DNA of 64,000 nt, taken from the NCBI GenBank assembly GCA_965287045.1, contig OZ336894.1, positions 14,942,001 to 15,006,000 on the forward strand, read 5' to 3'. The DNA is from Carcharhinus amblyrhynchos. Taxonomy: Eukaryota. Made by a program: the position numbers and the translations under genes. This document shows positions 6,325 through 41,800 of the stretch, in pieces; positions within the stretch are counted from its first letter, which is position 1, and the number at the start of each line of letters is the position of its first letter. The notes beneath the pieces are model-generated. The model was not told the DNA's origin. It saw only the letters and a program-made list of their open reading frames with translations, and made no database searches.

Positions 6325-6540
6325 AGTATTTGTCCTGCAAATCCACACATCTTTGAGACATTAAGGGGCAATTTAGCACAGCCAATCCACCTAACTTGCA
6401 CATCTTTGACTGGGAGGAAACCTGAGCACATGGAGGAAACCCATGCAGACATGGAGAGAATGTGCAAACTCCACAGATGGTCACCTCAGGCTGGAATAGA
6501 ACCAAGGTTTTTGGCAATGTGAGGCAGCAGTGCTAACCAT
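6325..6540 (-). mobile_element. HE1 (V-SINE)
   Basis: Reverse complement has the tRNA-like head TGGTTAGCACTGCTGCCTCAC and the V-domain GAGTTTGCACATTCTCTCCATGTCTGCATGGGTTTCCTCC. Confidence 0.9.
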
Positions 6541-29345: not shown

Positions 29346-30980
29346 TACTTATCTTCAGTAGACTACTACAGAAGTAAACAATGGGAATGTTGACGGAGAA
29401 TAATAAAGTGATGATACTTATGAGCGGCATAAAACTGTTTTCTGCTGAGTACATTTTGCAGCAGAAAATAAGTTATTTTCATCGCGATATATTACTGATT
29501 CTATTCAAATTCAATAGCTGTCTTGTCTTAAAAAGGTCAAGTAAAGTACATGTCATCTGGAAAAGTTACTAGCATTTTTCTCAACTGGCTAATAAGAGGA
29601 CAGCCATCAAACCTTTGTTATTTTATTTCACCAAAATAATTCCACAGGAAATAGATGTTAGAAAATTAATGCAATTTGTGCAGCAACTTTGAAAGGGAAA
29701 ATCAAATAATTACATCAGATCAAACTGATATATATTCAGTAAGCATGGAGATGCATACTTTTGGTTTTAATAAACATTAGAGAGCAGAAGTAGTATTTTT
29801 GCCCGAATATCAGTATCCCTGTAAGGTTAACTGAAGTTTAATGACGTGATTTTATGCCAGGATTGTGCTGGCCCAAACAAGAATATGCACCCCTTACAAA
29901 ATCATAGAGTTCTGAAATACTAGCCTGGGCTTTTTAAACTTGGGACTTTCCAATAAATCTGGGATGGATAGAGGTGCAAGCTATTAGTGATGCTATGTCT
30001 CCCACATCCTTGCATCCCTTCTCCCATTAACCAGCGTTGAATATGAATAGAAATTTGGGAATAATGTTCCGTACTGTTTCCTGCCATTTTCATTGAAACA
30101 CTGGGCAAAAAGGCTGCATGTTTGGCCTGGACATCTGCACGGTAAAACATTTTTTTTTGTAGGAACCAGAGCCCATGCAAACACCAATAGAACAAGGTAT
30201 TGTACAGGCAAAGAGGGCAAGACAATTTCTTTTTTAAACCCACTTTCCTGATTGCCTGGATTTCTATACCACAGCAGGCCTCTGGTGCCTTCACATCAGC
30301 ACTGCCGATGTATCAGTAGAGCTGGCAGAACTGATATTAGCATTCAAATTTTAGCCAAGGGAGCTGACAAGTGGAAATCCTAACCCACTTCTCTCACTGC
30401 TTGAAATGTGTCCCAATCATTGAGGAATTTGTAGAGATTAGGGGGAAAGCTTAGTGTGTAAAGTAGTTGTGGCGTGTACATTTCTACTACAAAATAGAAC
30501 CATAAAATCTACAGTTTTAAAAAAGATGTGTTGTTTGAAACAAGATATTTTTTGCCTTTCTACCTTTGAGCTGATGAATGAAGTCAAAGCAACTGGGTTG
30601 TAAAAGTAAGAATTATTTTTGGGCAATATTGTTAATTTACCTGAAATACCAACCAGTTAAAAGTTAAGGGGAAAAATGGATTTATTGCGCTTGGAACATA
30701 TGCTTATTTTTCATACTGTGTGATAGTTATTGCTTTCCTTGCAATTTGCTGACTGGTTTCTCTAATTCAGTTATTGACTGGTTTTACATTTAAAAAAAAA
30801 TTGTGGGATGTGGGCATTGCTGGCTAGGTCAGCATTCATTGTGAGAAGATGGAGGTGAGCTGTGTTCTTGAACCATGGTAGTCCATGCAGTGTAGATGTA
30901 CTCAGTGTTGTTAGAGGGAGATTAAGAATTGTGACCCAGTGACAATGAAGGAATGGCAGTAAGGTTTCCTCGTTGCGACG

Positions 30981-31806
30981 CACCACCATTGTGAGTTAGA
31001 TCTCGAACAATGACGAGACAGATTACAGGAATGAGAGAAGCTGGTGAACTGGTACAGCAACAATAATCTCTCCCTCAATGTCAACAAAATGAAGGAGATT
31101 GTGATTGACTTCAGGAAGCTTAATGGAGAACATGCCCCTATCTAGATCAATGGAGACGAAGTAAAAAAGGGTCAAGAGCTTCAAGTTTTTAGATGCCCAG
31201 ATCATCAACAACCTGTCCTGGTCCCCCCCATGCCGACACAATAGTCAGAAAGCCCACCAATGCCTCTAGTTTCTCAGAAGACTAAAGAAATTTGGCATGT
31301 CAGCTACGACTCTCACCAACTTTTATGTATGTACCATAGAAAGCGTTCTTTCTGGTTGTATCGCAATTTGGTATGGCTCCTGCTCTGACCAAGACTGCAA
31401 AGAACTACAAAAGATCATGAATGTAGCCCAATTTTTTATCCAAACCAGCTTCCCATCCATTAACTCTGTCTACATTTCCCACTGCCTTGGCAAAACAGCC
31501 AGCATTATTAAGGACCCCACGCATCCTGGACATTCTCTTCCCCCTTCTTCCATCGGGAAAAAGATAGAAAAGTCTGAGGCCATGTACCAACCGACTCAAA
31601 AACAGCTTCTTCCCTGGTGCTGTCAGACTTTTGAATGGACTTACCTTGCATTAAGTTGATGTTTGTCTACACCTTAGCTGACTGTAACACTACATTCTGC
31701 ATTCTCTCGTGTCCTCCTTTATGAATGGTATGCTATCTCTGTATAGCGCGCAAGAAACAATATTTTTCACTATGTTAATATGTGTGACAATAATAAATCA
31801 AATCCA
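30981..31806 (+). mobile_element. Rex1/Babar LINE, 5'-truncated
   Basis: ISNNDETDYRNE..NNNLSLNVNKMKEIVIDFRK, FKFL, TLTNFYVCTIESVLSGCIAIWYG, IIKDPTHPGH; tail GACAATAATAAATCAAATC. Confidence 0.88.
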
Positions 31807-32411
31807 GATAGTAGTCTTGGATTTAAAAGGAGCTGTAGATGTAGTCTTGGTGAGTTCCAGCAGTGCTTCTTGTAAATGGTACACAGTGCTGCCACTGTGG
31901 AGGGAGTGACTGTTTGTTTGTGGGTGGAGTACCAGTCAAGCAGACTGCTTTGTCCTGGATGGTTCTTGGGTGTTGGAGCTGCACCATTCAGGCAAATGAG
32001 AGAGTATTCAGTCACCTTCCAGACTTGTGCCCTGTAGATGGTGGCCAGGATCAGGAGGTGAGTTATTCAATGCCAGGATTCCTAGCCTCTGATCTGTTCT
32101 TATAGCCACAGTATTTATATGGTTAGTTCAGTTTCTGATTAATGGTGACCCTGAGAATGTTGATAGTGGGGGATTCAGCAAAGATAATATCACTGAATGT
32201 TGAGGTGTGATAGTAGGTTGTCTCTTGTTGGAGGTGGTCATTGTCTTGGATCTGTATGGCATGAATGTACTTGGCACTTGTCAGCCCAAGCCTGGCTATT
32301 ATCCAGGTCTTACTCCGCATGGACATGGACGTGGACTGGTTCAGTACCTGAGGAGTCATGAATGGTGCTGTACATCGTGCAGTCATCAACGAACATTCCC
32401 ACTTCTAACCT

Positions 32412-32833
32412 CATAAGAACATAAGAACTAGGAGCAGGAGTAGGCCATCTAGCCCTTCGAGCCTGCCCCGCCATTCAATAAGATCATGGCTGATCTGTCG
32501 TGGCTCAGTTCCACATTCCCGCCCTCTCCCCATAACCCTTAATCCCCTCGCTTACCAAACACCCATTAACCCGCGTCTTAAAAATATTTAGTGAGGCAAC
32601 CTCCACCACTTCAATGGGCAGAGAATTCCAGAGATTCACCACCCTTTGAGTGAAGAAGTTCCTCCTCAAGTCCGTTCTAAACCGCTCCCCCTTTATCTTG
32701 AGGCTGTGCCCCCTAGTCCTACTGTCCTTTCTGAGCGGGAAGAGTCTCTCCACCTCTATCCTATCCATCCCATTCATCATCTTATATGTCTCAATGAGAT
32801 CTCCCCTCGTTCTTCTAAACTCTAACGAGTACA
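32412..32833 (-). mobile_element. Young CR1 3' end, same subfamily as 17816-20272
   Basis: Near-identical to 17816-18245; splits the host LINE at CCCACTTCTAACCT|ATGATAGAAGGAAG (compare the uninterrupted host at 10811-10835). Confidence 0.95.
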
Positions 32834-33213
32834 ATGATAGAAGGAAGATCACGATGAACCAGCTGAAGATGTTTGGGCTTAGGACACCATCCTGATGAAT
32901 TCCTGTAGCAATGCCCTGGAACTGAGATGATTTACCTCCATCAACCATAACCATCTTTCTTTGTACTAAGTATGACTCCAACCAGTAGAGAGTTTGGCTC
33001 CGATTCCCATTGACTTTTGCTAGGGCTCCCAAATTTGGTCATGTACTGTCTTGATGTCAAAGGTATTTACTTTCTCCTCATTTCTGCTATTTAGCCTCTC
33101 TGCTGTGTTTGGACCAAGGCTGTACTGAGGTTAGGAACTGAATGGCCCTGCCAAATCCAAATTATGCACCAGCAGGTAATTGCTAATGAAGTGTTAATTG
33201 TTGCACTGTTGAT

Positions 33214-33512
33214 AGTGGCACAGTGGTTAGCATTGCTACCTCTCAATGCCAGTGGCCAAATTTGATTCCCGGCTTGGGTTATCATCTGTGTGGAATCTGC
33301 ACGTTCTCCCTGTGTCTGTGTGGGTTTCCTCTGGGTGCTCCGGTTTCCTCCCACAGTCTGAAAGATGTGCTGGTTAGATGCATTGTCCATACTAAAATCT
33401 CCCTCACTGTACCCTATCGGGCACCAGAGTGTGGTGACTAGGGGATTTTCACAGTAACTTCATTGCATTGTTAATGTAAGCCCACTTGTGACACTAGTAA
33501 ACTAAACTAAAC
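33214..33512 (+). mobile_element. HE1-like V-SINE with alternative (non-CR1) tail
   Basis: GTGGCACAGTGGTTAGCATTGC head and V-domain, then GACTAGGGGATTTTCACAGTAACTTCATTGC..GTAAGCCCACTTGTGACAC(TAAAC)n. Confidence 0.85.
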
Positions 33513-34113
33513 TTTCCATCACTTGCTGACGATTGAGAGTAGACTGAAGGAGTGGTAATTGGCTAGGTTGGATGTGTCCTACTTTTTGTGACAGGGCATG
33601 CCTGGGCAATTTCCCATGTGGACTGCAACTGTTCAAGAAGGCAGCTCACCACCACCAACATTTGAAAGTTGATTAGGGATGCGCAATTAAATGTTGGCCT
33701 GATCAATGAGACCCACATCCTGTGGAAAAAACAATTGCTGGTTAAGTACCACTGTTGTAGCTGTACTGGAACAATTTTGCTAGGGGGCATGGCAAGTTCT
33801 GAAGCACAAGCCTTATTGTAGGTACTATTGCTGGAATATTGTCAGGGCTTATTGTCTTGACACCAAGGGTACTGAACCCTATGATTTGAGGAAATACTAA
33901 GAATTGGAATTCTTGAAAATGGATATTCACCAATGCCATATGGATTGTTCCTTAGGATGTTAAAGGTGGTCAGGGAGCAAATGACAGATGCTCTGAGGAT
34001 TATTTTCCAATCTTCATGAGACACAGATGAGGTGCTGGACGACTGGAGGAATGCATATGTTGTTTTGTTGTTTGTAAAAAAAAGTATGATGGAAATGTCA
34101 AATAATTATAGGC

Positions 34114-34749
34114 GAATGGAACGCGCTACCGAGTAGGGTGGTGGAGGCAGGAACGTTGGACTCGTTTAAGGTTTACTTAGATAGACACATGAGCGAAATG
34201 AGGATGGAGGGTTATAGTAGGGGGTATTAAATAGGGTCAGAGCCTCAGGAGACACCGGAAATGCAGACTTGTATGTTAACATTTTTGTCTTTTTATTCCG
34301 CAGGTGGAGGTCCACCTTGTTGTCAAATGAGGGGCATGCACACGGTGGGTCGTGTGTGGGCTGCTGTTGGAGGTTCCGGGAGTGGCCTAGTACTTCGTGT
34401 CAGTGTGTGTGCTTGATCCTGGACTGGTAGACGGGTGCTGCAACAGCTCAGTGACTAGCACTGCTAGCTGTGCAGATACATGGATTTGGGCCTGTGTCTG
34501 TGGGAGTTTGCGCATTCTCCCTGTGGTTGCGTCGGTTTCCTCCGGGCGCTCCGGTTTCCTCCCACACCCCAAAGATGTGCTCTTAGGCTGATTGGTTTAC
34601 CAAATTGACACTGTTCTCCCCTGAATCTGGCTAAGTTAGGGGTTCCACTCGTAGACACGCAGGGTAGAATAGGTGTAGGAGGATGCGGTGGCGCGGGCTC
34701 GTTGGGCCGAAGGGCCTGTTTCCCGTGCTGGGTTGTTCTTTGTTCTTTG
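34114..34749 (+). mobile_element. Young CR1 3' end with long 3' UTR containing a V-SINE body
   Basis: WNALPSRVVEAGTLDSFKVYLDRHMSEMRMEGYSRGY* (34117-34230), V-domain at 34495-34580, CR1 tail GGGCCGAAGGGCCTG..(TTCTTTG)2; interrupts the host at TATAGGC|AGTTAGCC. Confidence 0.8.
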
Positions 34750-35439
34750 AGTTAGCCTTACTTCGGTGGTGGAAAATTGGTAGAATCAATCCTGAGACAT
34801 ACTCATCAATCCTGAGATAAACTGTCATTTAGGCATGGCTAATTGTTAAGGAAAAGTCATGCCGTACAAACTTCATTGAATTCTTTGAGGAAGTGATAAG
34901 GAGGATCGATGAGGGTAAAGCAGTAGATGTGTAAACATAGATTTTAGTAGTGTATTTGAAAAGGTCCCGCATGGTCAAAAAAGTAAAAGCCCATGGGATA
35001 CAGGCTAATGTGGTGGATTGGACCTAAAGTTGGCTTAGTAACAGGAAACAAGGGATAATGGTCAATGGCTGCCCTAGCAAATGGAAAGCTGTTTCAAGTA
35101 GTGTTCTGCAAGGTTCATGAATTCAGACCCTTATTTGTTTCATATATTAATGATTTGGACTTGAAAATGGGAGCATGATTGGGAAATTTGCAGATGACAC
35201 AAAAATCGGCCATTCAGTGGATAATGTGGAGGATAGCTGTAAGCTGAAAAATGCTACAGATGTACTGGTGGAGTTGCAGGGAAGTGGCCGATGGAGTTTC
35301 AGTCTTAAGTATGAGATGATGCATTTAAGGAAGTCAAACAGCAAAAGGGAATACATGATAAACAGGAATATACTAAGGGGGTAGATGAAGTGAGAGTGCT
35401 TGGCATGCAAATACACAGTCACTAAAGGTAGCAATACAG

Positions 35440-35645
35440 AAATCATAAGAATCCCTACAATGCAGGAGGAGTCCATTTGCCTCATTCAGTTTGCACCAAT
35501 CCTCTGACAGAGTATCTTACCCAGGCCATCTCCCCTGCCGTACACCCGTAACCTCATACATAACCTAATCCAACTAACCTACACATCTTGGGGCGCTAAG
35601 GGCCATTTACCATTGCCATCCACCTAACCTGCATATCTTTGGACA
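35440..35645 (-). mobile_element. HE1 3' fragment
   Basis: AGAATCCCTACAATGCAGGAGG...CCACCTAACCTGCATATCTTTGGAC. Confidence 0.75.
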
Positions 35646-35815
35646 GGTTGATAAAGTTGTAAGGAAGGCATATGGAATGCTCTCCTTCCTTGGCAGAGGT
35701 ATAGAATACAAATTGGATAAATGATGAAATTGAAGATACTGATGAGGCCATAACTGGGATATTGTCTACAGTTCTGGTCACCACATTACAGGAAGAATGT
35801 AATTGCTCTGGAGAG

Positions 35816-36130
35816 TGTGATGTTAGTGTCCCTTTAAGAAAGTTTTTTTTGAAAAAATATGATTTTTGCAGCCCACAGCTTCAGTGGTTTCAGCAGGTCA
35901 GGTGATGGGAAGGATTTCAGTTTCATTTTGGCTGTAGTATTAGAGCAATTTTAGAAGCAAGCTGGAAAAGAAGTTTCTTTTTCTCTCTGTTTTGCATTGA
36001 AAATTTTACCAGTTAGGTGAAAGACTTGTTGCCATGCTGCAGTAATTAATCTGTGCTTTGGTGTTTTTGGGGAGCTGATACGACTGCAAGCTGCTTTGAG
36101 TTTTCAAGACCATTTGAAATCAGCATTCAA
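35816..36130 (+). mobile_element. Partial LTR, same family as 60807-61576
   Basis: TGTGATGTTAGTGTCCCTTTAAGAA matches CGTAATGTTAGTGTACCTTTAAGAA at 60807. Confidence 0.7.
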
Positions 36131-36410
36131 CTCCAGTGGCAGATGGATTAAAGGGTAGATGAGGAAATACATTTTTATGCAGAGTGTTGTGGGTGTCTGG
36201 AATTTACTGCCTGAGTTGGTGGTGGAAGCAGAGGCCCTGAACTTGTTTGAAAAAATACCTGATTCTGCATCTTAAGTGTTTTAAGTTGTAGGACTGAGGA
36301 CCATGTGCAGGAAGATGGGATTTGAAAGGGCACTTGGCTGTCTTTGGGTTAGCATGGACAAGAAAGGTCAAACAGCCCCCTTCTGACCTGTATCGTTTCT
36401 GTGGTTTCAA

Positions 36411-36995
36411 TGAATCGAATTGGCTGAAGACTGGAATTTGGATGCTGGGCTTTTCTGGAGGAAGCTAAGATGGGTCACCCACTTGGCACTCCTGGCTGAA
36501 AATTGTCCCAAATGCTTCAGCCTTTTTTGCATTGTTGTGTTGGGCTCCCCCATCGTTGAGGATGGGGATATTTGTGGATCCTTTCTTTCCTAGTGAGTTT
36601 TTTAATGGTCCACAACTATTCACAACTGGATGTGGCAGGACTGCAGAATCTCTATCTGATCTGTTGATTGTGGGATTCCTTAGCTCTATCACAAGCTGCT
36701 GATGTTTGGCATGGTAGTCCTCCTGTTTTGTAGCTTCACCTAGTTGACACTTCATTTTTAAGTATGCTTGGTACTGATCTGGGCATAACAACCCCCCTTT
36801 CCCCCACTGTACCAGAGTTGAACCCCTGCTTTGATGGTAATTGTAGAATGGAAAATATACTGGCCAAATGAGCTTATGGTTGAGTACAATTCTGCTGCTA
36901 CTGATGGCCCACAGCGCCTCATGGGTACCCAGTCTTGACTTGCTAGATCATTTTGAAAGCTTTCCCATTTAACATGAGGGTGGTGTACGCAACAT
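36411..36995 (-). mobile_element. CR1-group LINE family B fragment (EN-RT linker)
   Basis: ORF 36465-36791 contains NIPILNDGGAQH..KAEAFGTIFSQECQV; homologous to 11450-12000. Confidence 0.75.
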
Positions 36996-37712
36996 GCTGC
37001 AGGGGTTTCCTGAATGTGAAAAAGTAGACATTACTACCTTTTATGGTGCATTTATATCTCATTCCAATGAAATTTTAATTCATTTTAGTTTCAGGTACAT
37101 TTTTAAAATATCGCCATTTGAGTTGCACTGTTGCACAAATCACCATTTACTGTCGGGAAATGAAAGAAACCTTTTCGCTTTATGTTTTCCATCTATGTAG
37201 ATGTATTTTGTAGTGAGTAGAAATTTCAAACGTTTTTGCTGGTTAACTAAATTTAACTACGAAGGGAAGTATTTACAACATGCTACTCTGCAATTATATC
37301 ACATGATTTTTTATATTGAATTAAAGGGCACACCCTCCCACAAATGTCATGTTTGCCAAAATAGTATAGCATTGAATAAAGTTAGATTATGGTTGAAGTT
37401 GGAATTACGAAATAAGACTGCTGGAAGTGAAGTCTGATGAATAAGGCCTTCCAAGGATACTGTATGCAAACAAATGATGAGATTTTGACTTCAGTTCCAT
37501 TATAACAATCTAATTTATGGAGCTAAAACTGTGAAATACTGAGTTTGAGTCACAAGTGTAATTTTGTTAGGCAAAATTTTGGTATTCATTGTGCTAAGGC
37601 TGTTAGGCCGCACAGTGGTGATTTTGTGGAATATGCAATGTTTCTCACTGCCTACTTTTAAAGAAAGCTTTGTGTTGAAGAGAATCAACATCTTGGATTT
37701 AGCTCTTCTAAA

Positions 37713-37775
37713 ATGCGAAGAGTGCTGTACAAATGTAAGCGGTTGTTGTTGCAAAACTCGCCTGAAAGTAAACAG
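37713..37775 (+). CDS. Candidate short first coding exon MRRVLYKCKRLLLQNSPESKQ (host gene unknown)
   Basis: Non-repetitive context, ATG with A at -3, 21 open codons and a consensus donor CAG|GTAAGT; no recognised homology. Confidence 0.25.
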
Positions 37776-37805
37776 GTAAGTGTTTCCATGTGCCAACAAG
37801 TTTAG

Positions 37806-38778
37806 CAGAAATTGAACACGATCTGGAGGAGGGGGCTGAGTGTAGGGTAACAAAATTTGCTGATGACACGAAGATGAGTGGAAAAGCGAATTGCGTGGAG
37901 GATGTGGAAAGTCTGCAGAGAGATCTGGAAAGGCTGAGTGAGTGGGCGAGGACCTGGCAGATAGAGTATAACGTTAGCAAATGTGAGGTTATCCACTTTG
38001 GTAGAAATAATAGGAAGAAATATTATTTAAAGGGTGAAAAGCTGCAGCGTGCTACTGTGCAGAGGGACCTGGGGGTTCTTGTGCACGAATCACAAAAACT
38101 CAGTCAGCAGGCGATCAAGAAGGCGAATGGAATGTTGGCTTTCATCGCGAGGTGGCAAGAATATAAAAGCAGGGAGGTCTTGCTGCAACTGTACAAGGCA
38201 TTGGTGAGGCTGCAACTAGAGTACTGTATGGAGTTTTGGTACCCTTATTTGTGAAAGGATATAGTGGCCTTGGAGGGAGCACAGAGAAGGTTCACCAGGC
38301 TGATACCGGAGATGAGGTGGTTAGCTTATGAGGAGAGATTAAATAAACTGGGCGTGTACTCATTGAAGTTTAGAAGGCTGAGGGGGGATCTTATAGATAC
38401 TTACAAGATAATGAAGGGGCTAGATAGGGTAGAGGTAGAGAGATTCTTCCCACTTAGAAAGGAAAACAGAACTAGAGGGCATAGCCTCAAAATAAGTGGG
38501 GGGGGGGGGCAGCTTAGAACAGAGTTGAAGAGGAACTTCTTCACTCAAAGGGTGGTGAATCTCTGGAATTCTCTGTCCATTGAAGTGGTGGAGGCTACCT
38601 CGTTGAATATATTTCAGTTATGGGTAGATAGATTTCTGATAGACAAGGGAATTAAGGGTTATGGGGAGAAAGCGGGAAAGTGGAACTGATCCACTGCAGA
38701 TCATCCATGATCTTATTGAATGGCGGGGCAGGCTCGAAGGGCTAGATGGCCTCCTCCTGCTCCTATTTCTCATGTTTT
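37806..38778 (+). mobile_element. CR1/HER1 LINE, 5'-truncated
   Basis: ORFs 37790-38254 and 38264-38689 (KFADDTK...NFFTQRVVNLWNSL), closely related to the 17816 copy. Confidence 0.95.
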
Positions 38779-38829
38779 TAGGAATAATCTGGCTTGACAG
38801 TAATTTTAACTAATTCAGGATCAACAAGG

Positions 38830-41800
38830 TCACCTATGTGCGGACCCATAAGAGATGGTTGAGATCCTAAATGAGTAGTTCTCATCAGCATTTACTGTTG
38901 AGAATGGCATGTATGTTAGGGAACTCAGGAAAATAAATACTGATGTCTTGAGGAGTATATATATTAAGGAGAAGGTGGTGCTGGAAGCCTTAAAGCGCAT
39001 CAAGGTAGATAAATCTCTAGGTCCAGATGAAGTGTATCCCAAGACATTGTGAGAAGTTAGGGAGGAAATTGTGGGTCTGCTAGCAGAGATATTTGGATCA
39101 TTGACAACCACAGGTGAGATGCCTGAAGATTGGAAGGCAACAAATCTTGTGCCTTTGTTTAAGAAGAGCTGCAAGGAAAAGTCTAGGAATGACAGGCCGG
39201 TGAGCCTAACATCTTTAGTGGGTAAGTTGTTAGATGATATTATGAGAGTCCGGATCTACAGGCAGATAGAGAGGCAAGGACTGATTAGGGACAAGCGGCA
39301 TGGTTTTGAGGAAAATCATGTCTTACAAATCTGATTGAATTCTTTGAAGGGATAACCAAGAAGGTCGATGAGGGTAGTACAGTTGATGTTGTCTACATGG
39401 ATGTGAGCAAGGCCTTTGACAAGGTACCACATGATAGGTTGTTGCTTTAGGTTAAACCTCACAGGATCCAGGGTGAGGTAGCCAAATGGATACAAAATTG
39501 ACTTGATGACAGAAGACAATGTGGTTGTAGAGGGTTGTTTTTCAAACTGGAGGCCTGTGACCAGAGGTGTGCTTCAGGGATCGGTGCTGGGTCCCCTGTT
39601 AGTTCTCATTTCTTTTAACGATTTGGATGAGAATTTGGGAAGCATGGTTAGTAAGTTTGCAGATGACACCAAGGTTGGTGGCATAGTGGATAGTGAAAAA
39701 GCTATCTAGAATTGCAATGGGATCTTGATCGTTTGGGCCAGTGAGCTAATGAATATCCACTGGAGTTTAATTTAGATAAATGCAAGGTGACGCGTTTTGA
39801 TAGAACGAACCAGTCAGGATTCAGTTAGTGGTAGGATGTGGGGGAGAGTTATAGAACAAAGATCTAGCGGTGCACGCTCATGGCTCCTTGAAAGTAGAGT
39901 AATAGGTGAGCAGAGTGATGAAGAAGGCATTCGGCATGCTTGGTTTCATGTCAGAACGTTGAATACAGGAGTTGGGACATCTTGTTGAAGTTGTACAAGA
40001 TATTGGAAAGGCCACACTTGGAATACAGTTTTCAGTTTTGGTTAGCCTATTATATGTAGAAATTATATTATTGAACTAGAAGAAGTGCAGAAAAGATAGA
40101 CTAGGATGCTACCAGGACTTGAGGATTTGTATTATAAGGAGAGGTTCAATAGATGTGGACTTTTTTCTCTGGAGCATTGGAGACTTAGGGGTGATCTTAT
40201 AGGGCTTTATACAATAATGAGGAGCATAAATCAGCTTGACAGTCAACATCTTTTCTCAAAGATAAGGTAGTCTAAAACTAGAGGGCAAAAGTGATACAAA
40301 TGGGTCCAGAGGGGCAATATTTTCACAGAGGGTGGTAAGTGTCTAGAACAAGCTGACAGGTGGTAGTAGAGGCAGGTAAAATTTTTTCTTTCAAAAAAAC
40401 ATTCAGTTACATGAGTAAGATGGGTATAGAGGGATATAGAACATAGAACATAACAGCGCAGTACAGGCCCTTCGGCCCTTGATGTTGTGCCAACCTGTGA
40501 AACCAATGTAAAGCCCATCTAACCTACACTATTCCAATATCATCCATATGTTTATCCACTGACCATTTAAATGCCGTTAATGTTGGCGAGTCCATTACTG
40601 TTGCAGGCAGGGTATTCCACATCCTTACTACTCTGAATAAAGAACCTACCTCTGACATCTGTCCTATATCTATCACCCCTCAATTTAAAGATATGTCCCC
40701 TCATGCTAGCCATCTCCATCCGAGGAAAAAGACTCTCTCTGTCCACCCTATCTAATCCTCTGATCATCTTGTATGCCTCTATTAGGTCACCTCTTAATCT
40801 TCTCTCTAATGAAAACAGCCTCAAGTCCCTCAGCCTTTCCTCAAGACTGTTCCATGATACCAGGCAACATCCTGGTAAATCTCCTCTGCACTCTTTCCAA
40901 TGCTTCCACATCCTTCCTATAATGTGGCGACCAGAACCGTATGCAATACTCCAAGTGCAGCCGCACCAGAGTTTTGTACAGCTGCAACATGACCTCATGG
41001 CTCCGAAACGCAATCCCTCTACCAATAAAAGCTAAGGCACTGTATACCTTCTTAACAACCCTATCAACCTGGGTGCCAACTTTCAGGGATCTATGCACAT
41101 GGACACCGAAATCTCTCTGCTCATCCACACTACCAATATCTTACCATTAGCCCAGTACTCTCTATTCCTGTTACTCCTTCCAGAGTGAATCACTTCACAC
41201 TTTTCTGCATTAAACGCCATTTGCCACCTCTCAGTCCAGCTCTGCAGCGTATCTATGTCCCTCTGTAACCTGCAACACCCTTCTGCACTGTCCACAACTC
41301 CACCGACTTTAATGTCATCTGCAAATTTACTAACCCATCCTTGTATGCCCTCAACCAGGTTACTTATAGAAATGACAAACAGCAGTGGCCCCAAAACAGG
41401 TCCTTGCGGTACAGCACTAGCAACTGAACTCCAGGATGAATATCTCCCATCAACCATCACCCTCTGTCTTCTTACAGCTAGCCAATTTCTGATCCAAATT
41501 GCTAAATCACCCTCAATCCCATGCCTCCATATCTTCTGCAATATCTTATCGTGGGGATCCTTATCAAATGCTTTACTGAAATCCATATACACCACATCAA
41601 CTGTTTTACCCTCATCCACCTCTTTGGTCACCTTCTCAAAGAACTCAATAAGGTTTGTGAGGCATGACCTACCCTCTCAAAACCGTGTTAACTATCCCTA
41701 ATCAAATTATTCCTTTCTAGATGATTATAAATCCTATCTCTTATAATCCTTTCCAAAACTTTGCCCGTGATAGAAGTATGGCTCACTGGTCTATAATTAC

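What the first reader, a model, noticed from the sequence alone, without database searches (positions are those of the whole stretch)
34114..34749. CR1 LINE whose 3' UTR has captured a V-SINE body (LINE-SINE chimera inserted as one unit)
Seen: the ORF2 C-terminus and stop (34230), ~210 bp of unique UTR, a decayed tRNA-like head (CAGTGACTAGCACTGCT), an intact V-domain, then the CR1 terminal stem and (TTCTTTG)2. The whole unit interrupts the host CR1 cleanly at TATAGGC|AGTTAGCC and is CpG-rich, suggesting it is young. Known: HE1 SINEs borrow their 3' tail from HER1/CR1 LINEs. Inference: here the flow appears reversed, with a LINE lineage that has adopted a SINE as its 3' end. This bears on the origin or function of the V-domain.
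Basis: partly seen in the sequence, partly recalled or inferred. Interest (0 to 1): 0.7.

Follow-up and report, generated by a model that had tools for sequence, protein, structure and literature searches.

The report
LINE keeps a captured SINE fold
A self-copying jumping gene (a CR1-type LINE with thousands of copies in this likely shark or ray genome) carries in its untranslated tail the promoter-damaged front half of a small parasitic element, likely captured once long ago, and keeps it far less changed than the DNA around it, likely as a folded RNA that helps it get copied, which makes a long-unexplained SINE domain testable.

Summary
Confirmed. Window 34116-34749 is a 5'-truncated copy of an abundant CR1-type LINE lineage. 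A lineage-specific 26-mer has 8,631 exact matches, full-length copies are about 4.6 kb, and one has both ORFs open. Its 519-nt 3' UTR holds a V-SINE head without a B box, plus the V-domain. All V-bearing ORF2 ends form one clade of seven or more subfamilies; other sampled CR1 lineages lack it. So the capture is single and old, and only this copy is young. The captured piece is about 90% identical across subfamilies, against 68% at ORF2 third positions and 40-49% in flanking spacers. It is predicted to fold into the same four-way junction as the SINE, with a few compensatory changes. The terminal stem resembles sister LINE tails more than SINE tails, so the SINE piece is an internal insert rather than an adopted 3' end. 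A conserved splice-acceptor-like motif yielded no spliced retrocopies. Best reading: an RNA structure domesticated by the LINE; its function is untested. Not found in print in seven searches. This scan noted the same lineage before, in this and other genomes.

The parts
33940..34113 (+). Older host CR1 copy, left part (ORF2, decayed); start approximate
   Evidence: translation of 34041-34112 ends NNYR
34116..34230 (+). 3' end of ORF2 of the inserted, 5'-truncated CR1-type copy, with stop codon
   Evidence: full-length relatives
34231..34281 (+). Variable UTR spacer (59 nt in this subfamily, about 150 columns in the alignment; 40% identity between subfamilies)
34282..34303 (+). Pyrimidine tract plus CAG resembling a splice acceptor; CAG kept in 7 of 7 subfamily majorities; use not shown
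34304..34432 (+). Conserved UTR block of unknown origin (79% identity), predicted hairpins
   Evidence: (z -2.7); no Rfam match
34433..34492 (+). Remnant of the V-SINE tRNA-derived head: A-box/D-arm region retained with changes, about 17 nt lost, B box gone; 90% identity between subfamilies
   Evidence: alignments and shuffles
34493..34607 (+). V-domain (89% identity between subfamilies); with the head it forms a predicted four-way junction plus hairpin
34608..34684 (+). Variable spacer (49% identity between subfamilies)
34685..34749 (+). CR1-type terminal stem-loop and (TTCTTTG)2 tail (97% identity between subfamilies)
34750..35400 (+). Older host CR1 copy, right part (RT region, decayed)

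Best explanation
This is a 5'-truncated copy of an abundant CR1-type LINE whose 3' UTR contains the head and V-domain of a V-SINE, likely captured once in the lineage's ancestor and likely kept since by selection as a folded RNA element that helps the LINE RNA get copied. Shown: the chimera moves as one unit, full-length copies with ORF1 and ORF2 carry it, it is confined to one clade, the B box is lost, and the segment is as conserved as ORF2 codon positions 1 and 2. Predicted: a four-way junction shared with the SINE, in which the SINE's long B-box arm is replaced by a shorter arm with a different 5' strand. Inferred: capture by SINE insertion or template switch upstream of the LINE's own terminal stem; loss of the B box because an internal Pol III unit was useless or harmful; benefit in cis through RNA stability or RNP/ORF2p loading.
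For: Copies and unit. 19 of 20 fetched full-length copies run from the shared 5' end to the tail; L141 has both ORFs open; Pfam RVT_1 and Exo_endo_phos above cut-off. 23 of 30 motif-sampled loci reach ORF2 and 7 are truncated inside the UTR. 30 of 30 tail-sampled loci align to this lineage. One clade of 29 rows, SH-aLRT 99; 0 of 27 outside rows carry V in their UTR. Identity among 7 subfamily majorities: head 0.90, V 0.89, ORF2 positions 1/2/3 0.885/0.88/0.68, spacers 0.40 and 0.49. Head vs SINE head: scores 34-40, reached by 0-19 of 2,000 shuffles. Structure: 97.5% of cells paired, 3 of 41 pairs with double changes, slid controls 33-52%. 6 of 7 LINE majorities (z -2.0 to -3.4) and the SINE majority give the same topology. 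The head remnant is LINE-specific, so conversion from SINEs cannot explain its conservation.
Against: No functional data. Double changes amount to about 2 independent events plus one single copy; for pair counts the shuffle control was reached 21 of 500 times and 87 of 500. RNAalifold on 20 decayed SINE copies did not recover the junction (-14 kcal/mol), and the SINE majority is no more stable than shuffles (z -0.34). One 2-copy subfamily majority folds differently. The window's own copy folds its V part in another register, and the whole UTR has z -0.88. Part of the sample was picked with a motif in the head, which inflates head conservation. Outgroups were whatever lay in fetched flanks; no intermediate with an intact B box and no immediate short-UTR sister was found. 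The DNA-level sequence could be what is conserved instead of the RNA fold.
Confidence: 0.6

Rival explanations
1. Captured from a SINE as above, but conserved as a DNA or protein-binding sequence element (enhancer, factor site, silencing decoy); the fold is a by-product inherited from the SINE.
For: Loops and unpaired positions are also nearly invariant (102 of 202 columns invariant); few compensatory events. Transcriptional and epigenetic roles are among the proposals for SINE domains (PMC4824008, passage).
Against: LINE-specific changes in the head create a new strand that pairs with the start of the V-domain and keep the topology; most variable pairs change to other standard pairs.
Confidence: 0.2
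2. Captured and carried passively; the apparent conservation comes from recombination among subfamilies or with SINEs, or from low local mutation.
For: V-SINEs are abundant here (43 copies in fetched DNA); module exchange and recombination hot spots are proposed for such domains (PMC5499810 introduction).
Against: All subfamilies share LINE-specific states that differ from the SINE majority (alignments). Spacers on both sides diverged to 40-49% while the segment did not, and the segment still varies in step with the subfamilies.
Confidence: 0.1
3. Reverse direction: the V-domain is an ancient CR1 3' UTR module and V-SINEs took it from such a LINE.
For: Kojima 2018 proposes that SINE bodies derive from LINE UTRs (PMC5786205 section 24).
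Against: A tRNA-type head remnant precedes the domain; the V clade is one of several CR1 lineages and the others lack it; V-SINEs occur from vertebrates to cnidarians and bivalves (PMC4824008 passages).
Confidence: 0.05
4. The UTR is kept because it is a spliced exon: donor-like motifs in the 5' UTR join the acceptor at 34303 to make a short non-coding RNA holding the V-domain and tail.
For: CAG after a pyrimidine tract in 7 of 7 subfamily majorities, at the edge where conservation begins; donor-like GTGAGT motifs near +42 and about +287 in full-length copies across subfamilies.
Against: 0 of 30 and 0 of 30 5'-end samples are spliced. 0 of 19 copies lacking the intronic C join a LINE 5' exon, against 3,651 unspliced; only the youngest subfamilies were tested this way.
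Confidence: 0.05

Closest known systems
HE1 V-SINE and partner LINE HER1 of sharks and rays (pair listed in the table of PMC3747384, passage; Ogiwara 1999/2002 originals not seen)
   Same: tRNA-derived head plus V-domain; CR1-type terminal stem and microsatellite tail. Naming the genome's SINEs as HE1-like V-SINEs is recalled; no reference sequence was available in any call.
   Different: Here head and V-domain sit inside an autonomous LINE's UTR, without a B box, behind ORF2; the tail is closer to sister LINEs than to the SINEs.
Canonical vertebrate CR1 elements (PMC13343379 section 15)
   Same: Esterase-like ORF1 and APE+RT ORF2; tandem subunits near the 5' end are also described there, for ORF1-less elements.
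   Different: 3' UTR of about 520-620 nt with a SINE-derived module, against tails ending within about 45-110 nt of the ORF2 end in most other CR1 rows sampled. The paper's main text has no occurrence of V-SINE, HE1 or tRNA; supplements not checked.
LINEs with SINE-like sequence in a UTR: Ingi-3_AC with Ceph-SINE-like sequence (PMC5786205 passage); BovB with SINE/CR1 pieces (recalled, paper not held)
   Same: A LINE lineage carrying sequence from another retroelement in a UTR, possibly by recombination.
   Different: Those cases involve RTE-derived or lineage-specific pieces; here it is a superfamily domain with its tRNA head, in the 3' UTR, conserved across subfamilies.

Membership tests
Canonical CR1 LINE | ORF2 with APE endonuclease and RT | tested here: met
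   RVT_1 E 4.8e-34, Exo_endo_phos E 5.8e-14 on L141 ORF2
Canonical CR1 LINE | Esterase-type ORF1 | tested here: inconclusive
   Lipase_GDSL_2 E 3.2e-5 and OSK E 3.8e-6, both below curated cut-offs
Canonical CR1 LINE | 3' stem-loop plus short tandem repeat tail, variable 5' truncation | tested here: met
Canonical CR1 LINE | RT groups with reference CR1 rather than L2, Rex1 or Zenon | not tested
   no reference sequences fetched; trees hold only elements of this genome
V-SINE (HE1 type) | Conserved central V-domain | tested here: met
   homology to the genome's tRNA-headed SINEs; that this body is the published V-domain is recalled
V-SINE (HE1 type) | tRNA-derived head with A and B boxes | tested here: not met
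   A-box region altered, B box absent in 7 of 7 subfamily majorities, present in the SINE majority
V-SINE (HE1 type) | Short non-autonomous unit beginning at the head | tested here: not met
   23 of 30 reach ORF2; only L113/L119 (one duplicated insertion) start within a few nt of the head
V-SINE (HE1 type) | Pol III transcription | not testable with these tools
   needs Pol III ChIP or in vitro transcription

The most novel reading that the evidence does not exclude
The tRNA head and V-domain together form one RNA four-way junction that promotes retrotransposition in cis regardless of polymerase, and an autonomous LINE has domesticated it from its own parasite; this would explain why V-domains have been conserved across animals and give the first direct assay for a SINE superfamily domain.
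Probability: 0.4. Interest if true: 0.75.

Novelty: new variant of a known kind. Interest (0 to 1): 0.55.

Why it matters
The function of conserved SINE domains is an open question (PMC4824008 passage), and Kojima 2018 remarks that no sequence similar to conserved SINE bodies had been found (PMC5786205 section 24). Here a V-domain is kept at coding-level conservation inside an autonomous LINE after losing its B box. That points to a role in the RNA or in cis rather than in Pol III transcription or host exaptation. It also gives a ready test system: an element with open ORFs whose module can be deleted or mutated in a standard retrotransposition reporter. Practically, these copies would be split into LINE plus SINE by repeat annotation.

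Tried and rejected
Two sequential insertions: rejected. A fixed 5' end at 34116: an artefact of using the truncated window copy as query. Spliced retrocopies: none. Eight of 19 loci start at the acceptor, but in 6 of the 8 the added 5' bases are complementary to bases just downstream (one with a mismatch), which fits fold-back at truncation, not an exon. Rfam: 0 matches in 30000-40000; 8 weak matches below gathering in 4 loci, none on the captured segment. ARAGORN: 0 genes. Sequencing runs: no RNA holder on record. Contigs of four coded runs cover all 30 bins, including the LINE-specific UTR block in organisms A and C, but none of the 15 listed joints (of 48) is GT..AG; this says nothing on expression. 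A narrower look at reads over the acceptor was not obtained, so splicing in RNA stays open. The first tree had 6 mislabelled rows from a crude rule and was redone, where 3 in-clade rows still failed the head motif but have the V hit. The SINE consensus fold by RNAalifold did not give the junction. Literature searches without a description of this lineage; Repbase and Dfam were not available, and Ogiwara 2002 and one BovB paper were not held.

Full report
Observation. The unit interrupts an older CR1 between NNYR and VSLTSVV, residues that are contiguous apart from one proline in an intact ORF2. It is CpG-rich relative to its flanks (0.64 vs 0.16-0.26).

It is a family. The ORF2-UTR-head junction gave 3,903 candidates; 40 of 40 scored matches cover it at 96-100%. 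All 29 other fetched loci continue to the same tail and differ in where they start, as expected for LINE copies. Exact motif counts in the 2.92-Gb genome: 8,631 for a 26-mer in the head remnant, 10,571 for a tail 27-mer, and 150 and 262 for two 5' UTR motifs; reversed controls gave 0. Of 20 full-length copies picked by their 5' UTR, 19 run about 4.6 kb to the tail, 2 have the whole 964-codon ORF2 open, and 1 (L141) also has ORF1 open. Pfam finds RT and endonuclease above cut-off and only weak SGNH-esterase-type hits for ORF1. Of 30 loci sampled by the head motif, 23 reach ORF2 and 7 are truncated inside the UTR. All 30 loci sampled by the tail motif align to this lineage; none is an intact-headed SINE or a short-UTR LINE.

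One old capture. Eighty copies (of 111 found) with enough ORF2 fall into 9 clusters, 7 with at least two members. A tree of ORF2 ends was built from 56 of 92 hits (35 of 43 near-identical young copies and 1 incomplete row left out). It places all V-bearing rows in one clade of 29 (SH-aLRT 99); none of the 27 rows outside has the domain in its own UTR. Three in-clade rows were labelled 'noV' by a strict motif rule but have the V hit. Rooting is midpoint and outgroups are opportunistic. The deepest subfamilies are about 75% identical in protein to the youngest, so the capture predates this copy by the whole history of the clade; I did not date it. Words of the family occur in runs of four coded organisms.

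Direction. Against a majority of 22 SINE copies from fetched DNA, the LINE segment aligns from the SINE's 5' end through the V-domain, with about 17 nt lost and no B box. The head alone scores 34-40, reached by 0-19 of 2,000 shuffles, against 25-32 for the longer upstream block as a control. A tRNA-type remnant inside a LINE UTR, restriction to one clade, and the wide distribution of V-SINEs (PMC4824008, passages) all point from SINE to LINE. That these SINEs are HE1-type V-SINEs, and that the host is a shark or ray, is recalled and inferred; the HE1/HER1 pair was seen only in a table of PMC3747384. The LINE's last 65 nt score 42-75 against 9 short-UTR CR1 tails (five at 62 or more) and at most 52 against 22 SINE tails. 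The SINE piece is therefore most simply an internal insert in front of the LINE's own end; an extinct donor SINE with another tail is not excluded.

Conservation and structure. Among the 7 subfamily majorities the head remnant is 90% and the V-domain 89% identical. ORF2 codon positions 1, 2 and 3 are 88.5%, 88% and 68%, the two spacers 40% and 49%, and the 129-nt block before the head 79%. Sampling by a head motif inflates the head figure but not the V figure. RNAalifold on 16 real copies predicts a four-way junction closed by the head's 5' end pairing with the V-domain, followed by a hairpin. On 24 copies 97.5% of cells pair, and 3 of 41 pairs show double changes, about two independent events plus one single copy; slid controls pair 33-52%. 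Six of 7 LINE majorities and the SINE majority fold into this topology; in the LINE the SINE's long B-box arm is replaced by a shorter arm with a different 5' strand. Against this: the alignment fold of 20 decayed SINE copies does not recover it, the SINE majority is not more stable than shuffles, one subfamily majority folds otherwise, and the window copy's V part takes another register. No Rfam family fits.

Splicing idea. A pyrimidine tract and CAG mark the edge of conservation in 7 of 7 subfamilies, and donor-like motifs persist in the 5' UTR. But 0 of 60 sampled 5' ends are spliced, and 0 of 19 copies lacking the intronic C join a LINE exon, against 3,651 unspliced. RNA evidence is lacking, so the motif is unexplained.

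Mechanism. Most likely (0.6) an ancestral CR1 acquired a V-SINE's head and body upstream of its own terminal stem and lost the B box. Its descendants then retained the folded module because it helps the RNA in cis, through stability or RNP loading. Capture, single origin and conservation are shown within the limits above; the fold is predicted; the benefit is inferred.

Literature. Seven searches listed no description of this lineage. I saw passages and section 24 of PMC5786205, passages of PMC4824008, PMC11481361, PMC3747384 and PMC13756887 (the last not relevant), the first of six parts of PMC5499810, and the outline, passages and section 15 of PMC13343379. Supplements, Repbase and Dfam were not examined and could hold the family. 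Earlier notes of this scan report the same lineage in this and other genomes; my reading was fixed before seeing them, and they are not counted as support.

Verdict. A real, well-supported new variant of a known kind, interest 0.55.

Noticed in passing
L142, L154, L162, L165/L166, L167, L171, L176, L177, L184/L185, L187 (5' ends of full-length copies): Full-length copies share one start resembling an initiator. Several carry an upstream tandem monomer of about 190 bp ending in a TATA-like box about 30 nt before the next monomer's start, suggesting a monomer-type promoter.
   Followed up: partly
L253, L255, L257, L260, L262, L265: Copies truncated at the acceptor-like site carry 4-5 extra 5' bases complementary to bases just downstream, as if the cDNA folded back on a native hairpin before integration.
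   Followed up: partly
window 34304-34432: A 129-nt conserved UTR block of unknown origin with predicted hairpins (z -2.7; 79% identity across subfamilies).
   Followed up: partly
L075, L080, L172, L061, L187: Internally deleted copies joining 5' and 3' parts at different, non-splice positions.
   Followed up: no
window 33213-33500; also near 6477, 8131, 12282, 15479, 44090, 45162, 48435: tRNA-headed V-domain SINE copies with two different tail types.
   Followed up: partly
window 32409-32830 (-), 35450-35645, 31270-31800: Other nested repeats near the finding: a short-UTR CR1 end, a reverse SINE-like copy inside the host CR1, and a further LINE-like 3' end.
   Followed up: no
L033, L034, L039; L113/L119; L115/L121; L116/L123: Copies sharing long flanks, i.e. 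segmental duplications, so some loci are not independent insertions.
   Followed up: no
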